A stretch of 64,000 bases of DNA from Clostridia bacterium (GCA_029256705.1 JAQSXK010000007.1:4606-68605), one strand, 5' to 3'; shown: positions 16,719-24,555, numbered from the stretch's first letter. Numbers and translations are program-made. Notes: generated by a model from the letters alone, not told the origin.

Positions 16719-17249
16719 TTGAAAAAATTAAGAAAAATGTTAGGCAAATATAATGATGAACATATGATTCAACTTATGACTCTGATTTCAAGTCAAAGTA
16801 AAGAAACTATTGCTAATTGGTGTATTGATTATGCTGAAAGAGAAATTCTACCAATATACTTAAAGTATTATCCAAATGATTATAGACCTAAAATGGCTTT
16901 AGACGCTTCTCGTGATTGGTTAAAAGGATTAAAGAAACTTCCAGAAGTTAAAAATATAATCTTAAACGAATGTCATCAGGCAGCGCGAGAAGCAGAGAAT
17001 AATCCAGCAGCTCAAGCAGCGGCAAGAACTCTTGGACAAGCGGCAGCTTGTTTTCATACTCCAACACATTCAATGGGATTAGCATTCTATGGTGGAGCAG
17101 CCGTTGCTTATGATAGATTAGGACTTGAAGCTAGTAATGGGGAATATGAAGAGGTAGCCTATCAGGAAGTTATTAAAATGACTAATGAGTTAAAGAAAGT
17201 TGCAGTAGAAAATGAACCAAATAAGGCAAAATTAAATTGGCACTGTTAA
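16719..17249 (+). CDS. hypothetical protein (Ala-rich, locally GC-rich; possibly immunity-type)
   Basis: 176 aa with an 'AQAAARTLGQAAACFHTPTHSMGLAFYGGAAVAY' core. GC is clearly above the flanks; a terminator lies at 17271-17305. Confidence 0.45.
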   Translation: MKKLRKMLGKYNDEHMIQLMTLISSQSKETIANWCIDYAEREILPIYLKYYPNDYRPKMALDASRDWLKGLKKLPEVKNIILNECHQAAREAENNPAAQAAARTLGQAAACFHTPTHSMGLAFYGGAAVAYDRLGLEASNGEYEEVAYQEVIKMTNELKKVAVENEPNKAKLNWHC

Positions 17250-17373: not shown

Positions 17374-17400
17374 TAATATTATTATCAAATGAGGTGAAAT

Positions 17401-17601
17401 ATGAAGAATAGGAAAATGAAAATAGCACGATTAGAACTAGATATGAAACAAGAAGATCTAGCAACTATTGTAGGAGTTACACGCCAAACAATTGGTATGA
17501 TTGAGTCTGGAAATTATAATCCTACTTTAAATCTTTGTATTGCAATCTGCAAGGCACTTGGAAAAACTTTGGATGAATTATTTTGGGAGGTAGAGAAATG
17601 A
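17401..17601 (+). CDS. XRE-family HTH transcriptional regulator
   Basis: 66 aa with the classic Cro/C1 HTH 'QEDLATIVGVTRQTIGMIESG'. Confidence 0.85.
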   Translation: MKNRKMKIARLELDMKQEDLATIVGVTRQTIGMIESGNYNPTLNLCIAICKALGKTLDELFWEVEK

Positions 17602-18086
17602 AAAAACAAATTATACAAGACGAAAGAGTAGTAGCACAAAAACAAAAAATATTAAGTGAATCATATGTCATTTTAATGATAATTCTTATTATATCTATAT
17701 TTATACAGCAAAATTTATTAAATGCACCTTTTAAGCAATATGCAGTTGAATTTATATGTTTTTTTGGAATATCAATTTACATTTTAATACGTAATTTAAC
17801 ACTTGGAATTGATATGTTTGGGGAGAAGAAAAAGGCAAAAATAATAGCTCTTAGAAATAGTATAATAGCTGGAATTGCTGTAACCGTTGTAACAGGTATT
17901 TCAAACTATATTGAATACGCTGAAAAATATGAAGGAAAATTAATTTTTTTTGTAATTTCACTATTGATTACATTTGTTAGTGCAGTTATTTGCACATTTG
18001 TTGTTTTTGCATTGATAGGTTTTATTAATAATATGAAAATAAATCAACTTGAAAAAAAATTAGATGAAGAAGAAAAAAGGAATTAA
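17598..18086 (+). CDS. membrane protein partner of the XRE regulator
   Basis: Overlaps the XRE stop; three TM helices; GGGAGG RBS. Confidence 0.55.
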   Translation: MKKQIIQDERVVAQKQKILSESYVILMIILIISIFIQQNLLNAPFKQYAVEFICFFGISIYILIRNLTLGIDMFGEKKKAKIIALRNSIIAGIAVTVVTGISNYIEYAEKYEGKLIFFVISLLITFVSAVICTFVVFALIGFINNMKINQLEKKLDEEEKRN

Positions 18087-18124
18087 TGGCTAAATTAGAA
18101 TTTATGAGTCAACTAACAATATAT

Positions 18125-18159
18125 AAAAAAGCTTTAAAACACTGTGTTTGGGGCTTTTT
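18125..18159. terminator. cassette terminator hairpin
   Basis: AAAAAAGCTTTAAAACAC-tg-TGTTTGGGGCTTTTT. Confidence 0.5.
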
Positions 18160-18167
18160 ATATTTTA

Positions 18168-18195
18168 TTGTCTTACATTTTGATAGTTGTAAATT
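18168..18195. repeat. cassette junction repeat (TTGTCTTACATTTTGATAGTTGTAAATT), homologous to the rpsI 3'-end core
   Basis: Aligns with TTGCTTATCTCTTTGATAGTTACAAAT of the other junctions. Confidence 0.45.
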
Positions 18196-18221
18196 AAGTC
18201 TTATCAGTAATTATACATATT

Positions 18222-18256
18222 TTGTATATTATGAGTATGCTAAGTGAGAGTTTGAT
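18222..18256. repeat. GTATATTA-containing junction motif (degenerate copy)
   Basis: TTTGTATATTATGAGTATGCTAAGTGAGAGTTTGATAG. Confidence 0.4.
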
Positions 18257-18284
18257 AGTGTCTTGTACTAAATAGTCCTTGAAA

Positions 18285-18313
18285 TATTATGTAAAATATG
18301 ATATAATACATAT
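18285..18313 (+). promoter_or_regulatory. sigma-A promoter TTGAAA-17-TATAAT of cassette 2
   Basis: TTGAAAtattatgtaaaatatgaTATAAT. Confidence 0.55.
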
Positions 18314-18343
18314 AGTTAAATTTATATTAATGGAGGGATGAAT

Positions 18344-18712
18344 ATGTCATTGACAATTTATCGAGTGTGTCAACCGGTGATTATCCGGGAAGAGAATATT
18401 ATTGATGTAAAATCTGTAACTTTGGCTTGTAATTTTTCATACTCATTGAGTTATTCGGCTGTAGAATTTGTCAAAAAAGCAGGTGAAAATGCAGTTGCCT
18501 ATGTGGAAGAAAGCTGCGGTGCTAAATTACTATTGCTATGCAATGCGGAGACGGGTGAAGTTTTTATACCAGATGATTATCCTGAAGTAATAAGGTTTGA
18601 AATAAAGCAACAGTTTATAGCATATTTGCTATCTAACATTCAATTTAAAGACATAAAATTCATGAAATTCAAACGAGATAGACTGATCGAACAAAAAGCT
18701 AACAAACTTTGA
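18344..18712 (+). CDS. hypothetical protein
   Basis: 122-aa ORF with a GGAGGG RBS. Confidence 0.45.
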   Translation: MSLTIYRVCQPVIIREENIIDVKSVTLACNFSYSLSYSAVEFVKKAGENAVAYVEESCGAKLLLLCNAETGEVFIPDDYPEVIRFEIKQQFIAYLLSNIQFKDIKFMKFKRDRLIEQKANKL

Positions 18713-18733
18713 AAAAATATTTAGGAGGTTTTT

Positions 18734-19183
18734 ATGTCTAATAAAGAAAAACGGATTTTTAAAAAGGGTGAGGTATTATATGTAATTGATTGTTGGGGCA
18801 CTACATGCGGCATGCATGCTTTTGAGGCTTCAGCTAGAATTATTCATATTGATGAAGAAATAGGAAGTTTCGATGCAGTTCTATATGGTGATACATATCA
18901 GAGATATAATGTTAAAGATTATGGTCGTTTGATTTTTGATGATGAATCAGAAGCGCTAAAAGCTGCATATAAATTACCAAAGCCTACTTCACTTGTATAT
19001 CAACTAATAGGTAATAGAGTTTTTAAAAAAATTGTTGTAGGAGTACGAAATGAAAACATTAATAACTTCACAGATCTAGTTGTTCATTTAAATAAAGGGA
19101 AAAGCGTGCCTATAGGAAGAATAGGCATTGAACTTTTTCTTGATGAATCATCTGCGAGAGAAAAAATAAGAAAAATTGATTAA
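18734..19183 (+). CDS. hypothetical protein
   Basis: 149-aa ORF with an AGGAGG RBS. Confidence 0.5.
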   Translation: MSNKEKRIFKKGEVLYVIDCWGTTCGMHAFEASARIIHIDEEIGSFDAVLYGDTYQRYNVKDYGRLIFDDESEALKAAYKLPKPTSLVYQLIGNRVFKKIVVGVRNENINNFTDLVVHLNKGKSVPIGRIGIELFLDESSAREKIRKID

Positions 19184-19251
19184 TTTTCTTGGTTTTTCTA
19201 AAAGAACTTATATATTTGAGTAGAGTTTTTCAAAAACTTCAACTGTAAAAA

Positions 19252-19285
19252 GAAAAAGCACCAAACCATTGAGGTTGGTGCTTTT
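19252..19285. terminator. cassette terminator hairpin (CCAAACCATTG-loop family)
   Basis: AAAAAGCACCAAACC-attga-GGTTGGTGCTTTTT. Confidence 0.6.
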
Positions 19286-19298
19286 TCTATATATTTTA

Positions 19299-19322
19299 TT
19301 ATCTCTTTGATAGTCACAAACG
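19299..19322. repeat. rpsI 3'-end core copy TTATCTCTTTGATAGTCACAAACG
   Basis: 12/12 identity to TTATCTCTTTGA at the rpsI stop region. Confidence 0.6.
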
Positions 19323-19348
19323 TAGTAATATCAGTAGTTATATAGATT

Positions 19349-19379
19349 TTTGCATATTATATGTATATTACGTAGAGAG
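19349..19379. repeat. GTATATTA quasi-palindromic motif TTTGCATATTATATGTATATTACGTAGAGAG
   Basis: Conserved at 6 junctions. Confidence 0.55.
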
Positions 19380-19479
19380 TTTTATAGAGTTAGAGTAATC
19401 ATATTTTTTATATATTAAATAGAAAATGTAAAAAACTATTTACATTAAATTCATTTTATGGTATTATAAAAATGTATAC

Positions 19480-19508
19480 TTCAAATTTATTTAATATTAT
19501 GATATAAT
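19480..19508 (+). promoter_or_regulatory. sigma-A promoter TTCAAA-17-TATAAT plus the conserved leader AATTAAACAAATGATAATTTGTATAGGAGG
   Basis: Spacing is 17 bp; the leader/RBS is shared with cassettes 4-6. Confidence 0.55.
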
Positions 19509-19549
19509 CAATTAAACAAATGATAATTTGTATAGGAGGTAATCGAAAT

Positions 19550-20011
19550 ATGGCAAAGGCAGAATGGTATGATGGAAAAGAAGGAAAGGCTGAACATTTA
19601 GTATATCTAAATAGTAAGGCAAAAGAATTAGAAAAATTAGAATGTAAAGAAAAAACAATGATTATTAGAGGTGCAGCAGGCAAAAAATGTCCTTTAGGTG
19701 GTCGTGCTAAATTAAATGATAATATATATTTTGTGGAAACTGGTGGAGATATGACAGTTACTCATAAAGGTATTATTTCAAATATAATAGAAAGTGAAAA
19801 AATGACTCCAGAGGAATCTGTTAATTTCATAAAAAAATATGAAAAACAGTTAAATCTATCAAAAGATCAATATGATAGATGGGCAGGTAAAAAGTTTCTT
19901 GCCGTTTATGAAATATCTAATTTAGAAAAGATTATTCCTTTTAAATATAACAGAGAGAACAATATGGATGATTGGATTATTACAGATGATATTAACAAAA
20001 TAAAAATATAA
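19550..20011 (+). CDS. hypothetical protein (cassette 3 cargo)
   Basis: 153 aa starting 'MAKAEWYDGKEGK...'; AGGAGG RBS. Confidence 0.5.
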   Translation: MAKAEWYDGKEGKAEHLVYLNSKAKELEKLECKEKTMIIRGAAGKKCPLGGRAKLNDNIYFVETGGDMTVTHKGIISNIIESEKMTPEESVNFIKKYEKQLNLSKDQYDRWAGKKFLAVYEISNLEKIIPFKYNRENNMDDWIITDDINKIKI

Positions 20012-20065
20012 TAAATTACAATTTATGAGTTAATAAAAAATATATATAAAATCAAACTATCAAAT

Positions 20066-20102
20066 ATAAAAAAGCCCCAAACCATTGCGGTTGAGGCTTT
20101 TG
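20066..20102. terminator. cassette terminator hairpin
   Basis: AAAAAAGCCCCAAACC-attgc-GGTTGAGGCTTTTG. Confidence 0.6.
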
Positions 20103-20116
20103 TTGTATGTTTTTGC

Positions 20117-20140
20117 TTATCTCTTTGGTAATTGCAAATA
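20117..20140. repeat. rpsI 3'-end core copy TTATCTCTTTGGTAATTGCAAATA
   Basis: 11/12 match to the core; the flanking TTGC also matches the rpsI context. Confidence 0.55.
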
Positions 20141-20165
20141 TATTATTATCAATGTTTATTGGCAT

Positions 20166-20198
20166 CTTTGTATATTATACGTATATTACGTAGAAAAT
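20166..20198. repeat. GTATATTA motif CTTTGTATATTATACGTATATTACGTAGAAAAT
   Basis: Tandem GTATATTA x2. Confidence 0.55.
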
Positions 20199-20244
20199 TT
20201 TATGGGACTTTGCAGATACCTCTTTTTCATAATAAAGTGTATAC

Positions 20245-20273
20245 TTGAAATTTATATGAAATTATGATATACT
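20245..20273 (+). promoter_or_regulatory. sigma-A promoter TTGAAA-17-TATACT of cassette 4
   Basis: TTGAAAtttatatgaaattatgaTATACT. Confidence 0.55.
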
Positions 20274-20309
20274 TAGTTAATTAAATGGTAATTCATGGAG
20301 GGAAAGTAA

Positions 20310-20786
20310 ATGTTTAAAATGAAATATATTATTTTAGGAATAGTAATTGTTATAATTGGAATATTTATTTGTGTATTTCTTTATGATAAAAAAGGTCTAA
20401 TTTTAGAAAATGAATCTAAATTGATTTACGAAATAAGTGAATGTCCAAACTCTAAGGTTGTTGCAAACGAAAATGAAAAAGTATATTATTATATTAAAAT
20501 TTATCAAGAAAAGGATAATACAATTATAGTAAAGGCAACATCTAATTCAGAATTAATGAAAGGCTTGCAATATACAATTAAATATGATAAAGTAATTACA
20601 CAAGATAATATAGAAATAAAATGGTTAACTTTAATGGGACAAAATAATGCAAGTGAGAATAATCAGGCAGCAATCGCAGATATAATTATATCAGATAATA
20701 AAGAAGTAGTTAGCGAAAGAAAGATAAATTTTGTATCAAAAATTATAGAGATAATAGTTGATAGAATTAATAAAAATAGCAAGTAA
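20310..20786 (+). CDS. membrane-anchored hypothetical protein (cassette 4 cargo)
   Basis: 158 aa with an N-terminal TM; GGAGGG RBS. Confidence 0.5.
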   Translation: MFKMKYIILGIVIVIIGIFICVFLYDKKGLILENESKLIYEISECPNSKVVANENEKVYYYIKIYQEKDNTIIVKATSNSELMKGLQYTIKYDKVITQDNIEIKWLTLMGQNNASENNQAAIADIIISDNKEVVSERKINFVSKIIEIIVDRINKNSK

Positions 20787-20815
20787 ACTATAATTTATGA
20801 GTTAGTCAATAATAT

Positions 20816-20850
20816 AAAAAGCACTAAATATAATATTTGGTGCTTTTAAG
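20816..20850. terminator. cassette terminator hairpin 1
   Basis: AAAAGCACTAAATAT-aat-ATTTGGTGCTTTT. Confidence 0.5.
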
Positions 20851-20890
20851 ATATGTTGATGTTATTAATAAGTATGAAGAAACATATAAT

Positions 20891-20927
20891 AAAAAACCCG
20901 AAAATCGTTGTGATTTCTGGGTTTTTA
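20891..20927. terminator. cassette terminator hairpin 2
   Basis: AAAAAACCCGAAAATC...GATTTCTGGGTTTTT. Confidence 0.5.
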
Positions 20928-20938
20928 AGCTTTTCTTC

Positions 20939-20962
20939 TCTATCTCTTTGATAGTTACAAAT
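20939..20962. repeat. rpsI 3'-end core copy TCTATCTCTTTGATAGTTACAAAT
   Basis: 11/12 match to the core. Confidence 0.55.
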
Positions 20963-20988
20963 CCATTATTATCAGTAAATGTATAGAT

Positions 20989-21027
20989 TTTTGTATATTA
21001 TGTGCATATTGTGTAGAGAGCTTTATA
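20989..21027. repeat. GTATATTA motif TTTGTATATTATGTGCATATTGTGTAGAGAGCTTTATAG
   Basis: Conserved junction motif. Confidence 0.5.
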
Positions 21028-21098
21028 GCTTCTAAAAAATTAATAAATATAATTATTTACTTTAGATTATGTTTATTTATTATTTAGTAAAATTAGCT

Positions 21099-21126
21099 TT
21101 GAAAATCAGTTTGAACATGATATAAT
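21099..21126 (+). promoter_or_regulatory. sigma-A promoter TTGAAA-16-TATAAT of cassette 5
   Basis: TTGAAAatcagtttgaacatgaTATAAT; followed by the leader TAGTAATTTGTGAGTAGAGGAAAG. Confidence 0.45.
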
Positions 21127-21185
21127 TATACTGATTAAACAAATTTAATAAATAGTAATTTGTGAGTAGAGGAAAGTGAAATTAT

Positions 21186-21734
21186 ATGATGCGATATGTA
21201 GCTTTATTAAGGGGAATAAATATTAGTGGTAAAAATAAAATAGCGATGTTAGAATTAAAAAAAGAATTTGAAAAATTAGATTTTTTTGAAGTTCTTACTT
21301 ATATCAATAGTGGAAATATTATTTTTTCTAGTAATATAGAGGATACAGACATTATAGAAAATAATATTAAATTAATGATACAAAATAAATTTAATTTAAA
21401 TATTCCTGTATTTATAATAACAATAGAAAAATTAGCAATGATATTAAAAAATGCACCAGATTGGTGGGGAAATGATAACAAAGAAATATATGACAATATT
21501 ATTTTTATAATTCCGCCTACAACATATGAAGAAGTATTCTTAGAAATTGGCGAGGCTAAACAAGAGTATGAAAAAATAAGTAACTATAAAAATGTAATTT
21601 ATTGGTCTTTTGACTTGAAATCTTATTCTAAAACAAATTGGATTAAGACAGCAAATTCAAAAATAAATAATAAAGTTACAATAAGAACAGCAAATACTAT
21701 GAAAAAATTATTTGAACTTAGTAAAACAGTGTAA
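21186..21734 (+). CDS. DUF1697 family protein
   Basis: The N-terminus 'MMRYVALLRGINISGKNKIAMLELK' is the hallmark DUF1697 signature (RGINVGG). Confidence 0.7.
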   Translation: MMRYVALLRGINISGKNKIAMLELKKEFEKLDFFEVLTYINSGNIIFSSNIEDTDIIENNIKLMIQNKFNLNIPVFIITIEKLAMILKNAPDWWGNDNKEIYDNIIFIIPPTTYEEVFLEIGEAKQEYEKISNYKNVIYWSFDLKSYSKTNWIKTANSKINNKVTIRTANTMKKLFELSKTV

Positions 21735-21792
21735 AAGACAAATTAAAATTTAATTGATTAGTTATAAAAATAGTAATTTGTGGAGGTGTAAG

Positions 21793-22140
21793 ATGTTTAA
21801 TGAAATATGTATATACGAAGTAAAATTAAATAAACAAGATGAAGTTGAAGAACTTATGAGAGAAGTTGCTGATTTTTATAAATTCCAACCGGGTGTTATT
21901 GAAGTTAAGTATATAAAAAGAACTCATAGGCAAAAAGACTTTAATACAGTTAAAGAAGGTCAAGTACCGGTTGAATTAACTAGATATGTAGATAAAGTTA
22001 CTTATGTGTTATATTGGGTATTAGAAAGTAAAGAAGCACACGCAGCAATATATCCAATTGCTCTAGAAAAGTTTTATAAAAGATGGACTAGATGTTTAAC
22101 TACAATGCCTAGAATTATATTAGGCGAAAATATTGTTTAA
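21793..22140 (+). CDS. hypothetical protein (possibly ABM/Dabb-like small alpha+beta protein)
   Basis: 115 aa; the GGAGGTG RBS and leader resemble the cassette leader. Confidence 0.4.
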   Translation: MFNEICIYEVKLNKQDEVEELMREVADFYKFQPGVIEVKYIKRTHRQKDFNTVKEGQVPVELTRYVDKVTYVLYWVLESKEAHAAIYPIALEKFYKRWTRCLTTMPRIILGENIV

Positions 22141-22157
22141 GAAAGGAAGTCAGAGTT

Positions 22158-22481
22158 ATGCATGAAATATTATTAACATTATTAATAGGATTTATTGTAG
22201 GAATTATAGATATAGCACCAATGATTAAAATGAAACTTGATAGATACGCTTTATCATCTGCATTTACTTTTTATTTTATTATGCCTTTTATTATTTATAA
22301 TTTAGATTTTTTAAATACTTTATGGTGGTTAAAAGGGGAACTTATAACCCTCATATTATCTATTCCTACAACAATTCTTATAGCAAAAACAGATAAGAAA
22401 GGTTGTATCCCAGTTGTTATTATGTCTATTGTACTTGGAACTATAATAGGTATAGCTGGACATTTATTAGGGATTATGTAA
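22158..22481 (+). CDS. hypothetical membrane protein
   Basis: 107 aa with four hydrophobic segments. Confidence 0.5.
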   Translation: MHEILLTLLIGFIVGIIDIAPMIKMKLDRYALSSAFTFYFIMPFIIYNLDFLNTLWWLKGELITLILSIPTTILIAKTDKKGCIPVVIMSIVLGTIIGIAGHLLGIM

Positions 22482-22517
22482 AAGATAAATTACAATTTAT
22501 AAGTTAATTAATAATAT

Positions 22518-22551
22518 AAAAAAGCTCCAAACCATTGAGTTTGGGGCTTTT
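22518..22551. terminator. cassette terminator hairpin
   Basis: AAAAAAGCTCCAAAC-cattgag-TTTGGGGCTTTT. Confidence 0.6.
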
Positions 22552-22562
22552 GAACATCTTTT

Positions 22563-22593
22563 TGCTTATCTCTTTGAAAATTGTAAATAAAGT
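22563..22593. repeat. rpsI 3'-end copy TTGCTTATCTCTTTGAAAATTGTAAATAAAG (22/23 identity to 24158-24180)
   Basis: TTATCTCTTTGAAAATTGT is identical to the rpsI terminal 19-mer. Confidence 0.7.
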
Positions 22594-22616
22594 ATTATCA
22601 GTGTTTACTATTATAT

Positions 22617-22645
22617 TTGTATATTATATGTATATTACGTATAGT
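22617..22645. repeat. GTATATTA motif TTTGTATATTATATGTATATTACGTATAG
   Basis: Conserved junction motif. Confidence 0.55.
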
Positions 22646-22689
22646 AATTTAGAAAATTTTTAAAGTAGTTCTTGTTAAAAAATGTATAC

Positions 22690-22718
22690 TTGAGATTTAT
22701 ATCATATTGTGATATACT
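22690..22718 (+). promoter_or_regulatory. sigma-A promoter TTGAGA-17-TATACT of cassette 6
   Basis: Followed by the leader AATTAAACATATAGTGATTTGTAAAGGAGAG. Confidence 0.5.
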
Positions 22719-22765
22719 TAATTAAACATATAGTGATTTGTAAAGGAGAGATTGTTTTGGATAGA

Positions 22766-23320
22766 ATGAGATTTGAATTATATTGGAGTTATTATTTGTC
22801 AATTGAAAAAATGTTAAGTAATACAAGTCAATATGTATCACCTTCAAGTGAAAATAAAAAAACATATTCTGACGAATTTACAAAAATAATATTATTATCA
22901 TGTTCAGAAATAGACTCTATATTAAAATTAATTTGCAAATGTAAAGGAATAGAATATGATCAAAGAAAATATAATATGAATATTTATTCCGAAGTTTTAT
23001 TGCAATTTAAAGATATTAAAAAAATTTCTTACGCTTCAAATTCAAATACCTCGATGAATGAAAATAGTCTAAGTGTTACTCCATTTGAAAAATTAAATAG
23101 CAATACAAAATACGGGGGATTAAGTTGGTGGGAAGATTATCAATCGCTAAAACATAATAGATTAGATAATGCAGAAAAAGGAAACCTATTCAATGCGGTA
23201 TCTTCAATTTCAGCACATTACATTTTATTAAGATTTTTAATAGAATTTTTAGATGAGTATGCTGGAAAAAGCTATGTAATAGATCATAATCTTTCTGAAT
23301 ATTTAATACCATGTGTATAA
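22766..23320 (+). CDS. hypothetical protein (upstream partner of the HEPN-like gene)
   Basis: About 185 aa; AAAGGAGAG RBS. The start is the ATG at 22766 or the TTG at 22757. Confidence 0.45.
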   Translation: MRFELYWSYYLSIEKMLSNTSQYVSPSSENKKTYSDEFTKIILLSCSEIDSILKLICKCKGIEYDQRKYNMNIYSEVLLQFKDIKKISYASNSNTSMNENSLSVTPFEKLNSNTKYGGLSWWEDYQSLKHNRLDNAEKGNLFNAVSSISAHYILLRFLIEFLDEYAGKSYVIDHNLSEYLIPCV

Positions 23321-23382
23321 TGATAATATAATACTGGTTACAATTCTTAGGATATATAAACATATTAGGAGGGAGATATTTA

Positions 23383-23916
23383 ATGGATACAGTATTAGAG
23401 TATATGATTAATAAAGAATGGGAAAAGGATTATAAAGCCAAAAGAAAAATTTATTTAATAAATTTAGCTGAAAAAAGTAAAAGAGAAAAAGATATATCAA
23501 ATAAAATAGGAAGTATGTTAATATATAATCAAGTTATTGAACAAATATTAAAAGAGGTAATTATATGTAGTGTAGGTTATATAAAAGCAGAAATATGGCC
23601 AAGTTCTATACAGTTAGATATAAATTTAGATAGGGCAACTTTTGGTGTGTTGATAGAATATTTTAAACAATATGCTGTAAAAGAATACAATAGAGATATA
23701 ATATTAGAATATTTACAAAAATTAAATATAGAAAGAAATAAAGTTGTACACAAACTTTTTGATATTGAGGATATAAGAAAATTAAGTAAACAACTAAATG
23801 AATATGGTGATTTAGCATATGAATTAATAATACTTTTAAACGAATATTATGATCAAATTTGCTGGCGATTATATGACCTAAATGATAGAGTTGATTTCGA
23901 GTCTTTAAGTGAATAA
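23383..23916 (+). CDS. HEPN-like protein (Rx4H motif 'RNKVVH')
   Basis: 177 aa, all-alpha character, with 'ERNKVVHKLF' matching the HEPN Rx4-6H motif; AGGAGGGAG RBS. Confidence 0.45.
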   Translation: MDTVLEYMINKEWEKDYKAKRKIYLINLAEKSKREKDISNKIGSMLIYNQVIEQILKEVIICSVGYIKAEIWPSSIQLDINLDRATFGVLIEYFKQYAVKEYNRDIILEYLQKLNIERNKVVHKLFDIEDIRKLSKQLNEYGDLAYELIILLNEYYDQICWRLYDLNDRVDFESLSE

Positions 23917-23970
23917 AAGGAATTAAACATGGCAGTGGATATATGAAATAAATAACTATAATTATAAGTG

Positions 23971-24013
23971 TATTTGTATATTGCTTGTATATTATGTGTA
24001 TATTGTATAAAAA
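23971..24013. repeat. GTATATTA motif (three tandem GTATATT units) immediately left of the rpsI terminator
   Basis: TATTTGTATATTGCTTGTATATTATGTGTATATTGTATAAAAAC. Confidence 0.5.
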
Positions 24014-24107
24014 CTTTAGTAATATTATAATTGATTAAATGTACTTAAATTAACATTTATGATTAAATTGAAATTATATGAATAGCTATAAGTAATATAT
24101 AATAAAA

Positions 24108-24147
24108 AACCTTAAAAGTATTGATACTTCTAAGGTTTTTAATGCTT
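24108..24147 (-). terminator. rpsI rho-independent terminator
   Basis: AAAACCTTAGAAGTATCAATACTTTTAAGGTTTTTT read on the minus strand. Confidence 0.7.
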
Positions 24148-24162
24148 CTTGAAAAAGTTTGA

Positions 24163-24555
24163 TTATCTCTTTGAAAATTGTGGTGCTTTTCTTGCTTTCT
24201 TAAGACCATATTTTCTTCTTTCTTTAACTCTTGAATCTCTAGTTAGTAAACCATTTCTTTTTAGAACTGTACGAGTATCTAAGTCAGTTGTTGAAAGTGC
24301 TTTTGCAATACCATGAGCAATAGCTCCTGCTTGACCTGCAAATCCACCACCATGAACTGTAGCCTCAACATCATATTTTTCCATTAAGTTTGCTACGTTA
24401 AAAGGTTTTAATATTATTGCTTTTAATGTATCTAGGTTAAATACTTCGTTAATGTCTTTTTTATTTATAGTTATTTTACCTGTACCTGGTATTATGTTTA
24501 CTCTTGCAATAGATGATTTTCTTTTACCTGTTGCATAAATATATTCTTTTGCCAT
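24163..24555 (-). CDS. rpsI: 30S ribosomal protein S9
   Basis: 'ATGKRKSSIARV...GGGFAGQAGAIAHGIAKAL...RDSRVKERRKYGLKKARKAPQFSKR' is near-identical to the S9 consensus. Confidence 0.95.
   Translation of the reverse strand: MAKEYIYATGKRKSSIARVNIIPGTGKITINKKDINEVFNLDTLKAIILKPFNVANLMEKYDVEATVHGGGFAGQAGAIAHGIAKALSTTDLDTRTVLKRNGLLTRDSRVKERRKYGLKKARKAPQFSKR

What the first reader, a model, noticed from the sequence alone, without database searches (positions are those of the whole stretch)
22757..23916. Two-gene HEPN-like module as cassette cargo (candidate abortive-infection / toxin-antitoxin pair)
The innermost cassette carries two co-directional genes with no scaffold between them (22766-23320 and 23383-23916). 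The second has the HEPN Rx4H signature (ERNKVVHKLF) in an all-helical 177-aa protein. HEPN RNases are typical effectors of abortive-infection and TA systems and are normally paired with a neutralising partner.
Basis: inference. Interest (0 to 1): 0.6.

Follow-up and report, generated by a model that had tools for sequence, protein, structure and literature searches.

The report
Two stacked solo HEPN-type defence genes
The two neighbouring genes are real, and the second is very probably a HEPN-type RNA-cutting enzyme, but they are not a toxin–antitoxin pair: each belongs to its own unannotated family that elsewhere occurs alone among anti-phage genes.

Summary
Two co-directional genes (22757-23320 and 23383-23916) lie 62 nt apart, with no repeat scaffold or terminator between them. 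They sit in the cassette next to rpsI.

Gene 2 (177 aa) is a HEPN-superfamily protein:
- R118-N119-x3-H123 is invariant in 73/73 homologues.
- The motif ends helix 3 of a confident all-helical model.
- An E-x3-K motif lies in helix 2.
- 45/73 family members hit CARF-HEPN/Csm6 models and 27/73 hit Pfam RiboL-PSP-HEPN. All these hits are below curated cut-offs.

The pair interpretation is not supported. No gene 1 relative was found in 24 independent loci with a gene 2 homologue, and no gene 2 relative in 41 loci with a gene 1 homologue. Neither family has a conserved partner. Both sit among restriction-modification (R-M), Gabija, helicase, AbiH and HepT/MNT genes or on mobile elements.

Gene 1 (187 aa) belongs to a very large unannotated family. 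It has a HEPN-like helix layout and an invariant variant motif, D-x3-K … WW-x2-Y-Q-x2-K-H-x-R. It does not look like an antitoxin.

Best reading: two independent single-gene, abortive-infection-type effectors stacked behind one promoter. These are new families of a known kind, of moderate interest.

The parts
22482..22756 (+). Upstream scaffold of the cassette. It holds a hairpin (22520-22551), a copy of the rpsI 3' end (22566-22584), TGTATATT repeats (22609-22642), a promoter-like site and the RBS.
   Evidence: It aligns with four other scaffolds of the array. The motif searches give 4 and 5 matches against 0.29 and 0.00 expected by chance.
22690..22718 (+). Best promoter-like site for the pair: TTGAGA, 17-nt spacer, TG-extended TATACT.
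   Evidence: It matches 10 of 12 consensus positions, the best in the region. It lies in repeat family D6, which is conserved in three scaffolds. The total number of promoter-like sites in the region is not above chance, so this is a consensus match only.
22757..23320 (+). Gene 1, 187 aa from TTG 22757. It belongs to a large unannotated family with E48-x-D50-x3-K54 in helix 2 and W121-W122-x2-Y125-Q126-x2-K129-H130-x-R132 at the end of helix 3 (numbering from ATG 22766).
   Evidence: No Pfam, NCBIfam or PADLOC family matches. It matches phrog_19461 at E 1.9e-6. Its top Foldseek PDB hits include HEPN structures but are not significant.
23321..23382 (+). Intergenic gap with the gene 2 RBS AGGAGGGAG (23367-23375). 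It contains no terminator and no scaffold repeat.
   Evidence: A second promoter-like site matching 10 of 12 positions (23303-23332) overlaps the end of gene 1.
23383..23916 (+). Gene 2, 177 aa, a stand-alone HEPN-superfamily protein. [quoted passage not shown]
23962..24106 (+). Partial scaffold downstream of gene 2: TGTATATT repeats (23962-24011) and a promoter-like stretch, with no gene behind it.
   Evidence: It aligns with the right-hand part of the other scaffolds.
24105..24140 (.). Hairpin with T/A runs on both sides. It is the rpsI terminator and the only terminator-like structure downstream of gene 2.
   Evidence: with the sequence.
24163..24181 (-). Last codons and stop of rpsI (…QFSKR*). 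This 19-nt block is identical to 22566-22584 and marks the right-hand boundary of the cassette.
   Evidence: Read directly from the sequence. The rpsI ORF is and its Ribosomal_S9 Pfam assignment.

Best explanation
The cassette next to rpsI carries two unrelated genes that each act alone. They are probably co-transcribed from the scaffold promoter, and both are candidate single-protein abortive-infection effectors.

Gene 2 is a stand-alone HEPN ribonuclease whose catalytic domain is most like the HEPN domain of Csm6/CARF-HEPN and RiboL-PSP/AbiD/AbiF proteins. It has only a roughly 40-residue helical N-terminus in place of a sensor domain. By analogy with characterised HEPN enzymes, it should dimerise (or form a higher oligomer) so that R118/N119/H123 from two subunits form a metal-independent RNase site. 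It would stay latent in uninfected cells and cut tRNA, rRNA or mRNA when a phage product activates it, stopping translation.

Gene 1 belongs to a separate, much larger unannotated family. Its helix order matches HEPN: an acidic-x3-K motif in helix 2, a long insert, and conserved residues at the end of helix 3. Its motif differs: Y-[NQ]-x2-K-H-x-R. It is most likely a divergent HEPN-like enzyme, not an antitoxin.

Shown here: the genes, the motifs, the predicted folds, the profile similarities, the lack of co-occurrence and the defence-island neighbourhoods. Inferred: RNase activity, oligomerisation, phage triggering, co-transcription, and the HEPN ancestry of gene 1.
For: Gene 2 is HEPN:
- R118, N119, V122 and H123 are present in 73/73 homologues. 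E53 is E or D in 72/73, and K57 is K in 40/73.
- The model has pLDDT 93.6. The helices are 19-33, 38-70, then an insert, 104-123 and 131-169, so the motif ends helix 3. That is where PMC3710099 places it.
- 27/73 members hit PF18735 HEPN_RiboL-PSP, best E 7.2e-5. P0052 residues 52-164 align to profile positions 91-190 of 191.
- 45, 41 and 37 of 73 members hit two CARF_HEPN models and the Csm6 model of PADLOC, best E 1e-5. The window protein hits Csm6 positions 167-294 of 316 at E 0.005.
- Foldseek PDB top hits are 1wwp (prob 0.98), 7ae6, 5yjc, 2hsb and 2q00.

The genes are independent:
- tblastn of both proteins on 68 loci finds both only in the three contigs of the same organism. 24 independent gene 2 loci (21 with at least 1 kb on both sides) and 41 gene 1 loci (26 likewise) lack the other gene.
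- No neighbour is conserved across diverged loci.

Defence context:
- Around gene 2 homologues: PLD-helicase, AbiH and DUF3427 helicase; MazG plus SLFN-type helicase/STAND; SNF2 and SLFN helicases, HepT/MNT and KAP NTPase; Gabija-like OLD-TOPRIM plus UvrD, Fic, and ICEA plus methylase; an integrase and Mob element.
- Around gene 1 homologues: Gabija-like genes and HsdS in Staphylococcus; methylase plus Eco47II; the edge of a mobile element in E. faecalis; RelE/HTH.

Gene 1 family:
- 3357 representative clusters at E ≤ 1e-3.
- Invariant D50, K54, Y125, Q126, K129, H130 and R132.
- Model pLDDT 93.7.

Precedent: HepS is a solo HEPN that both senses and kills, with no partner (PMC13043305).
Against: - No HEPN profile is matched above its curated threshold by the window protein or by any relative whose bit score was returned. 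For example, P0052 scores 17.8 bits against a cut-off of 28.4.
- Profile searches against PDB sequences found nothing.
- For gene 1 the HEPN reading rests on helix order, motif position and non-significant fold hits. hhalign against the gene 2 family and against two HepT sequences was not significant.
- Here the two genes are 62 nt apart with no terminator between them, so a lineage-specific functional link cannot be excluded.
- No experiment supports RNase activity or phage defence for either family.
Confidence: 0.6

Rival explanations
1. One reading: a two-gene toxin–antitoxin or abortive-infection module, in which gene 2 is the HEPN toxin and gene 1 its neutralising partner.
For: The genes are adjacent, on the same strand and 62 nt apart, with no terminator between them. 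One strong promoter-like site lies upstream of gene 1, and the upstream position is typical for an antitoxin. The pair is kept together in three contigs from this organism.
Against: - The families do not co-occur in 24 plus 41 independent loci, including the closest gene 2 relatives at 75, 70 and 61% identity.
- Gene 1 matches no Pfam, NCBIfam or PADLOC family at all, so no nucleotidyltransferase or DNA-binding domain was found.
- The gene 1 family is far larger than the gene 2 family and occurs alone.
- Its invariant Y/Q/K/H/R cluster looks like an active site, not an antitoxin surface.
Confidence: 0.1
2. Two HEPN-type proteins that cooperate only in this lineage, for example as a hetero-oligomer or as two layers with one trigger. 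They would have been brought together by cassette shuffling and are now a functional unit.
For: Both have a HEPN-like helix order, with conserved residues at the end of helix 3. HEPN sites are formed between subunits (PMC3710099; PMC13043305). The genes are probably co-transcribed.
Against: There is no detectable sequence relationship between the two families (hhalign probability 0.1). There is no co-occurrence elsewhere. Each family is evidently functional alone.
Confidence: 0.1
3. Neither gene is a defence effector. Gene 2 would be a non-catalytic or housekeeping RNA-binding HEPN protein, and gene 1 an unrelated helical protein such as an immunity or anti-defence factor. Both would be passenger cargo of the rpsI hotspot.
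For: The same array carries an Imm5-like immunity protein and other small genes of unknown function. Gene 1 has relatives in phage collections (phrog_19461; one BFVD hit at E 2.5e-7). No functional data exist for either family.
Against: Full conservation of R-N-x3-H in 73/73 gene 2 homologues argues for catalysis. PMC3710099 reports that non-catalytic HEPN domains lose this motif. Both families recur next to known defence genes.
Confidence: 0.15

Closest known systems
HEPN domain of Csm6 / CARF-HEPN proteins (type III CRISPR ancillary RNases)
   Same: These are the best profile matches for the gene 2 family: 45, 41 and 37 of 73 members, best E 1e-5. The window protein aligns to the HEPN part of a Csm6 model, positions 167-294 of 316. 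Both have the R-N-x3-H motif. Csm6 structures are among the top fold hits.
   Different: Gene 2 has no CARF sensor domain: it is 177 aa with a short helical N-terminus. No CRISPR context was seen, and its homologues stand alone in defence islands. All matches are below family thresholds.
RiboL-PSP-HEPN (Pfam PF18735), and the AbiD/AbiF families that PMC3710099 calls its distant relatives
   Same: This is the only Pfam family hit recurrently by gene 2 relatives: 27 of 73, best E 7.2e-5. The match covers the C-terminal half that includes the motif. The motif is conserved, and AbiD and AbiF are abortive-infection gene products (PMC3710099).
   Different: Scores are below the gathering cut-off (17.8 against 28.4 bits). 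There is no L-PSP fusion, and no ParB-type gene was noted next to the homologues examined.
HepS, the solo HEPN abortive-infection protein of Salmonella prophage Gifsy-1 (PMC13043305)
   Same: Both are single small HEPN proteins with a canonical Rx4H motif, no conserved partner or inhibitor gene, and a mobile or defence-locus location. [quoted passage not shown]
   Different: No sequence match to any PDB chain was found. No HepS-named structure appeared in the top 50 fold hits, although it is not known whether the HepS structure is in the library searched. Oligomeric state, trigger and RNA target are unknown here.
HepT/MntA (HEPN–MNT) type II/VII toxin–antitoxin pairs
   Same: The toxin is a small HEPN protein, and it is among the fold hits for gene 2 (7ae6, 7bxo).
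   Different: These pairs are defined by an adjacent minimal nucleotidyltransferase antitoxin. Gene 1 is not one and is not a conserved neighbour. True HepT/MNT pairs occur separately near homologues of both genes.
Integron-cassette HEPN family (PDB 3jrt; PMC3710099)
   Same: A small HEPN protein carried as cargo of a cassette-type array.
   Different: The array here has neither attC-type sites nor a nearby integrase. Each unit carries its own promoter and a copy of the rpsI 3' end. No sequence link to that family was found.
AbiV (lactococcal abortive infection, HEPN without the canonical motif)
   Same: One gene 1 relative (P0160) is named 'AbiV family' in UniProt. AbiV is also a roughly 200-aa protein (size from my own knowledge) listed in PMC3710099 with a non-canonical HEPN site.
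   Different: No member listed a match to the AbiV Pfam model. In AbiV the H of the motif is lost and another H lies in the insert. In gene 1 the H is kept, the R position is Y, and an R follows two residues after the H.

Membership tests
HEPN superfamily (gene 2) | Rx4-6H motif with a polar residue directly after the R | tested here: met
   R118-N119-K-V-V-H123. R, N and H are present in 73/73 homologues. The definition is from PMC3710099.
HEPN superfamily (gene 2) | [quoted passage not shown] | tested here: met
   The AF2 model (pLDDT 93.6) has helices 19-33 and 38-70, an insert at 71-103, then helices 104-123 and 131-169. This rests on secondary structure only, because model coordinates could not be inspected.
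HEPN superfamily (gene 2) | Conserved acidic residue in helix 2, typically as E-x3-[KR] | tested here: met
   E53 is E in 67 and D in 5 of 73 homologues. K57 is K in 40 of 73.
HEPN superfamily (gene 2) | Significant sequence-profile or fold similarity to established HEPN families | tested here: inconclusive
HEPN superfamily (gene 2) | Metal-independent RNase activity that depends on the R and H | not testable with these tools
   This needs biochemistry.
Pfam PF18735 HEPN_RiboL-PSP | Score above the gathering threshold (28.4 bits) | tested here: not met
   The window protein has no hit. P0052, the only relative whose score against this model was returned, reaches 17.8 bits. The best E-value among 73 members is 7.2e-5.
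Csm6 / CARF-HEPN | N-terminal CARF sensor domain fused to the HEPN domain | tested here: not met
   Only the HEPN part of the model (167-294 of 316) is matched by a 177-aa protein.
HEPN–MNT (HepT/MntA) toxin–antitoxin | Adjacent minimal nucleotidyltransferase antitoxin | tested here: not met
   Gene 1 matches no Pfam family, so no NTP_transf_2 or Polbeta domain. It is helical with its own conserved motif.
Two-gene toxin–antitoxin or Abi module in general | The two genes are kept together across genomes | tested here: not met
   0 of 24 gene 2 loci and 0 of 41 gene 1 loci hold the other gene. There is no conserved neighbour.
HEPN superfamily (gene 1) | Rx4-6H motif | tested here: not met
   The H is conserved (H130, 81/81). 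The position five residues before it is Y125 (81/81), followed by Q126 (N in the wider family). An invariant R132 follows the H.
HEPN superfamily (gene 1) | Helix order, acidic-x3-K in helix 2, and conserved residues at the end of helix 3 | tested here: met
   Helices are 3-22 and 36-59 (with D50-x3-K54, both 81/81), an insert at 60-114, helix 115-130, R132 in the loop, and helix 141-159.
HEPN superfamily (gene 1) | Significant profile or fold similarity to HEPN families | tested here: inconclusive
   HEPN structures 1wol, 2hsb, 1jog and 8xdj are among the hits, but with E ≥ 0.7. No Pfam HEPN hit was found. Single weak PADLOC HEPN hits appear. hhalign was not significant.
AbiV (Pfam PF18728) | Match to the family model | tested here: not met
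   No member of A4 or A5 listed it (the list was cut at 25 of 43 families). The only link is a UniProt name on P0160.
Integron gene cassette | attC recombination site and an IntI integrase with attI nearby | tested here: not met
   The scaffolds are roughly 270-nt units, each with a hairpin, a copy of the rpsI end and a promoter. No integrase or recombinase Pfam hit lies within ±10 kb. The rest of the window was not scanned.

The most novel reading that the evidence does not exclude
Gene 1 represents a very widespread single-gene defence family (at least 3357 clusters at 50% identity) that is not annotated in Pfam, NCBIfam or PADLOC. It would use a re-wired HEPN-type active site, Y-[NQ]-x2-K-H-x-R in place of R-[N]-x3-H. 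The rpsI-linked array would be an integrase-less bank of promoter-bearing cassettes that stockpiles such solo effectors.
Probability: 0.25. Interest if true: 0.65.

Novelty: new member of a known kind. Interest (0 to 1): 0.38.

Why it matters
Solo HEPN proteins have only recently been shown to be complete sense-and-kill immune systems (HepS, PMC13043305). Gene 2 adds a compact Csm6-like HEPN family with no sensor domain and no partner, which raises the question of what activates it.

Gene 1 points to a large family that is absent from Pfam, NCBIfam and PADLOC and recurs in defence islands of Firmicutes. Plasmid-borne relatives were found in Proteobacteria and Bacteroidetes. It has an invariant catalytic-looking motif, which makes it a cheap, testable candidate for a new defence gene.

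The correction also matters for annotation. Adjacency inside a cassette is not evidence for a toxin–antitoxin pair.

Tried and rejected
- Direct family scans of both window proteins gave only chance-level hits, apart from the HEPN part of Csm6 for gene 2.
- Profile searches of both families against all PDB sequences found nothing meaningful.
- Foldseek against PDB gave no hit with E < 0.1 for either model.
- hhalign of the gene 1 family against the gene 2 family gave probability 0.1. hhalign of either family against two HepT sequences taken from fetched loci gave P 0.03-0.14. Those runs did align RN..VH with RN..AH.
- Scans of viral contigs found no relatives of either family.
- tblastn against plasmids found nothing for gene 2 and only 'hypothetical protein' for gene 1.
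- Rfam and tandem-repeat scans for an RNA antitoxin or a known RNA in the scaffolds found nothing above threshold.
- The AbiV lead from a UniProt name found no support in the listed Pfam matches.
- The scaffold is absent from the locus of the closest gene 2 homologue.
- GC content of the cassette is the same as its surroundings, about 24%.

Full report
**What is there**

The + strand carries two ORFs, 22709/22757/22766-23320 and 23383-23916.

For gene 1, homologues start M-[DE]-R-x-x-F-E-x-Y-W, and a GGAG at 22745-22748 precedes TTG 22757. The protein is therefore most likely 187 aa from 22757, which is the finding's start coordinate. Public records annotate 195 and 203 aa. Gene 2 starts at ATG 23383, behind AGGAGGGAG at 23367-23375.

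The source is a Clostridia MAG (proteins MDF2866213 and MDF2866214). GC content is about 24% throughout and the cassette is not compositionally distinct.

The 62-nt gap has no hairpin and no scaffold repeat. The best promoter-like site is in the scaffold upstream of gene 1: 22690-22718, TTGAGA-17-TG-TATACT. The only terminator-like hairpin downstream is the rpsI terminator at 24105-24140. Co-transcription is therefore likely, but it is an inference.

**Gene 2 is a HEPN protein**

Eighty-seven homologue clusters were found, none with a Pfam domain. In 73 full-length members, R118, N119, V122 and H123 are invariant. E53 is E or D in 72 of 73, and K57 is K in 40 of 73.

The AlphaFold model (pLDDT 93.6) is all-helical: helices 19-33 and 38-70, an insert at 71-103, then helices 104-123 and 131-169. 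The R-N-x3-H motif thus ends helix 3, and E-x3-K lies in helix 2. This matches the positions that define HEPN domains in PMC3710099.

The window protein alone matches only the HEPN part of a PADLOC Csm6 model (E 0.005). Across the family the signal is consistent:
- 27 of 73 members hit Pfam HEPN_RiboL-PSP, best E 7.2e-5. The match covers the C-terminal half of the profile.
- 45, 41 and 37 of 73 hit two CARF_HEPN models and the Csm6 model, best E 1e-5.

Foldseek against PDB puts HEPN structures on top (1wwp, 7ae6, 5yjc, 2hsb, 2q00), but with E ≥ 0.14. No curated threshold is reached. This is therefore a new family inside the superfamily, not a member of an existing Pfam family.

**Gene 1 is not an antitoxin-like protein**

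It has 86 close homologue clusters. A profile search of 1.84 billion representatives found 3357 clusters at E ≤ 1e-3 and 1171 at E ≤ 1e-10. None of the sampled members has a Pfam, NCBIfam or PADLOC assignment. The only family match is phrog_19461, of unknown function.

The model (pLDDT 93.7) has helices 3-22 and 36-59, an insert at 60-114 with short strands, then helices 115-130 and 141-159.

[quoted passage not shown] In the wider family the pattern reads E-x-[DE]-x3-K and WW-x2-Y-[NQT]-x2-K-H-x-R.

The layout parallels HEPN. [quoted passage not shown] The canonical R position, however, is Y, and an R follows the H. PMC3710099 describes HEPN families with comparable rearranged sites. HEPN structures appear among the Foldseek hits (1wol, 2hsb, 1jog, 8xdj), but not significantly.

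I rate HEPN ancestry of gene 1 at about 50%.

**The pair is not a conserved module**

tblastn with both proteins on all 68 fetched loci finds both only in three contigs of the same organism, at 100% identity.
- 24 independent loci with a gene 2 homologue lack a gene 1 relative. 21 of them have at least 1 kb on both sides, and they include the closest relatives at 75, 70 and 61% identity.
- 41 independent loci with a gene 1 homologue lack a gene 2 relative. 26 of them have at least 1 kb on both sides.

Some loci are near-duplicates of one another. Clustering all neighbouring ORFs shows no partner shared across diverged loci for either family.

**Neighbourhoods**

Gene 2 homologues lie next to:
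- a PLD-helicase, AbiH and a DUF3427 helicase;
- MazG with an SLFN-type helicase/STAND protein;
- SNF2 and SLFN helicases, a HepT/MNT pair and a KAP NTPase;
- Gabija-like genes, Fic, and ICEA with a methylase;
- an integrase and Mob element;
- ORFs whose N-terminal sequence resembles Dam-type methylases (my reading of the sequence, not a family search).

Gene 1 homologues lie next to:
- Gabija-like genes and HsdS fragments in Staphylococcus;
- a methylase with Eco47II;
- the edge of a mobile element in E. faecalis;
- RelE/HTH.

Both families therefore behave as solo genes of defence islands and mobile elements.

**Mechanism proposed**

Each protein would act alone as a latent effector. For gene 2 the analogy is with characterised HEPN enzymes. 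Subunits pair so that R/N/H residues form a metal-independent RNase site, and activity is unleashed by a phage product, as shown for the solo HEPN protein HepS (PMC13043305). All of this is inferred; no activity was tested.

**Context**

The cassette is the last unit of an array at 18.1-24.2 kb. Each roughly 270-nt scaffold contains a hairpin, a degenerate copy of the last rpsI codons, TGTATATT repeats, a promoter-like site and an RBS.

The 19-nt block TTATCTCTTTGAAAATTGT is identical at 22566-22584 and at the real rpsI stop, 24163-24181. Downstream of gene 2 lies a scaffold fragment without a gene. No recombinase Pfam hit occurs within ±10 kb.

This looks like repeated site-specific insertion into the 3' end of rpsI. 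That is a known target of integrative elements in streptococci according to my own knowledge; the papers found (for example PMC5357655) were not read. Here, however, the units are tiny, carry their own promoter and lack an integrase. I did not pursue this further.

**Verdict**

The HEPN call for gene 2 is supported. The toxin–antitoxin pairing is not supported. Both genes belong to unannotated families of a known kind (solo HEPN-type effectors). The gene 1 family is the more novel lead.

Noticed in passing
window 18087-24181: An array of at least five gene cassettes is separated by roughly 270-nt scaffolds. Each scaffold holds a hairpin, a degenerate copy of the rpsI 3' end (…QFSKR*), TGTATATT repeats, a promoter-like site and an RBS. 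A 19-nt core is identical at 22566-22584 and at the real rpsI stop (24163-24181). No recombinase lies within ±10 kb. It looks like serial site-specific insertion of tiny integrase-less elements into the 3' end of rpsI.
   Followed up: partly
window 23962-24106: The right-hand part of a scaffold (TGTATATT repeats and a promoter-like stretch) has no gene behind it. It runs straight into the rpsI terminator, like an empty slot. The gene 1/gene 2 cassette also lacks the usual hairpin and rpsI-end copy at its own 3' side.
   Followed up: partly
L009:5570-5983, L061:5578-5991, L011:7090-7593: In two diverged loci a 137-aa peptide-deformylase-like gene sits 9-17 nt upstream of the gene 2 homologue, and in a third it lies nearby. 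This is the only recurrent neighbour among diverged gene 2 loci.
   Followed up: no
proteins P0240, P0339-P0363; phrog_19461: The gene 1 domain also occurs as the C-terminal half of proteins of about 340 aa, with an unannotated N-terminal region of about 150 residues. These are frequent in Bacteroides-type metagenomes and are represented in a phage protein family.
   Followed up: no
window 16719-17249 and 17400-18086: Just upstream of the array lie an Imm5-like immunity protein (E 1e-36) and an HTH gene followed by a DUF6773 membrane protein. These are further conflict-system-type cargo in the same variable region between yunB and rpsI.
   Followed up: no
window 22709-22766: Public annotations start gene 1 at GTG 22709 (203 aa) or further in (195 aa). 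Homologue alignment and the RBS favour TTG 22757 (187 aa).
   Followed up: yes
L024-L030 (e.g. L025:4095-5966): In five loci a gene 1 homologue directly follows, or overlaps, a gene for a protein of 557-623 aa with a zinc-ribbon-like N-terminus (…WWKCPKCGH). The minimum identity among these upstream proteins is 33%. It may be a subfamily-specific partner.
   Followed up: no
window 20310-20786: This cassette gene encodes a 158-aa protein with an N-terminal hydrophobic segment. It has a weak match (E 0.003) to the EndoU-type NSP15 C-terminal domain.
   Followed up: no
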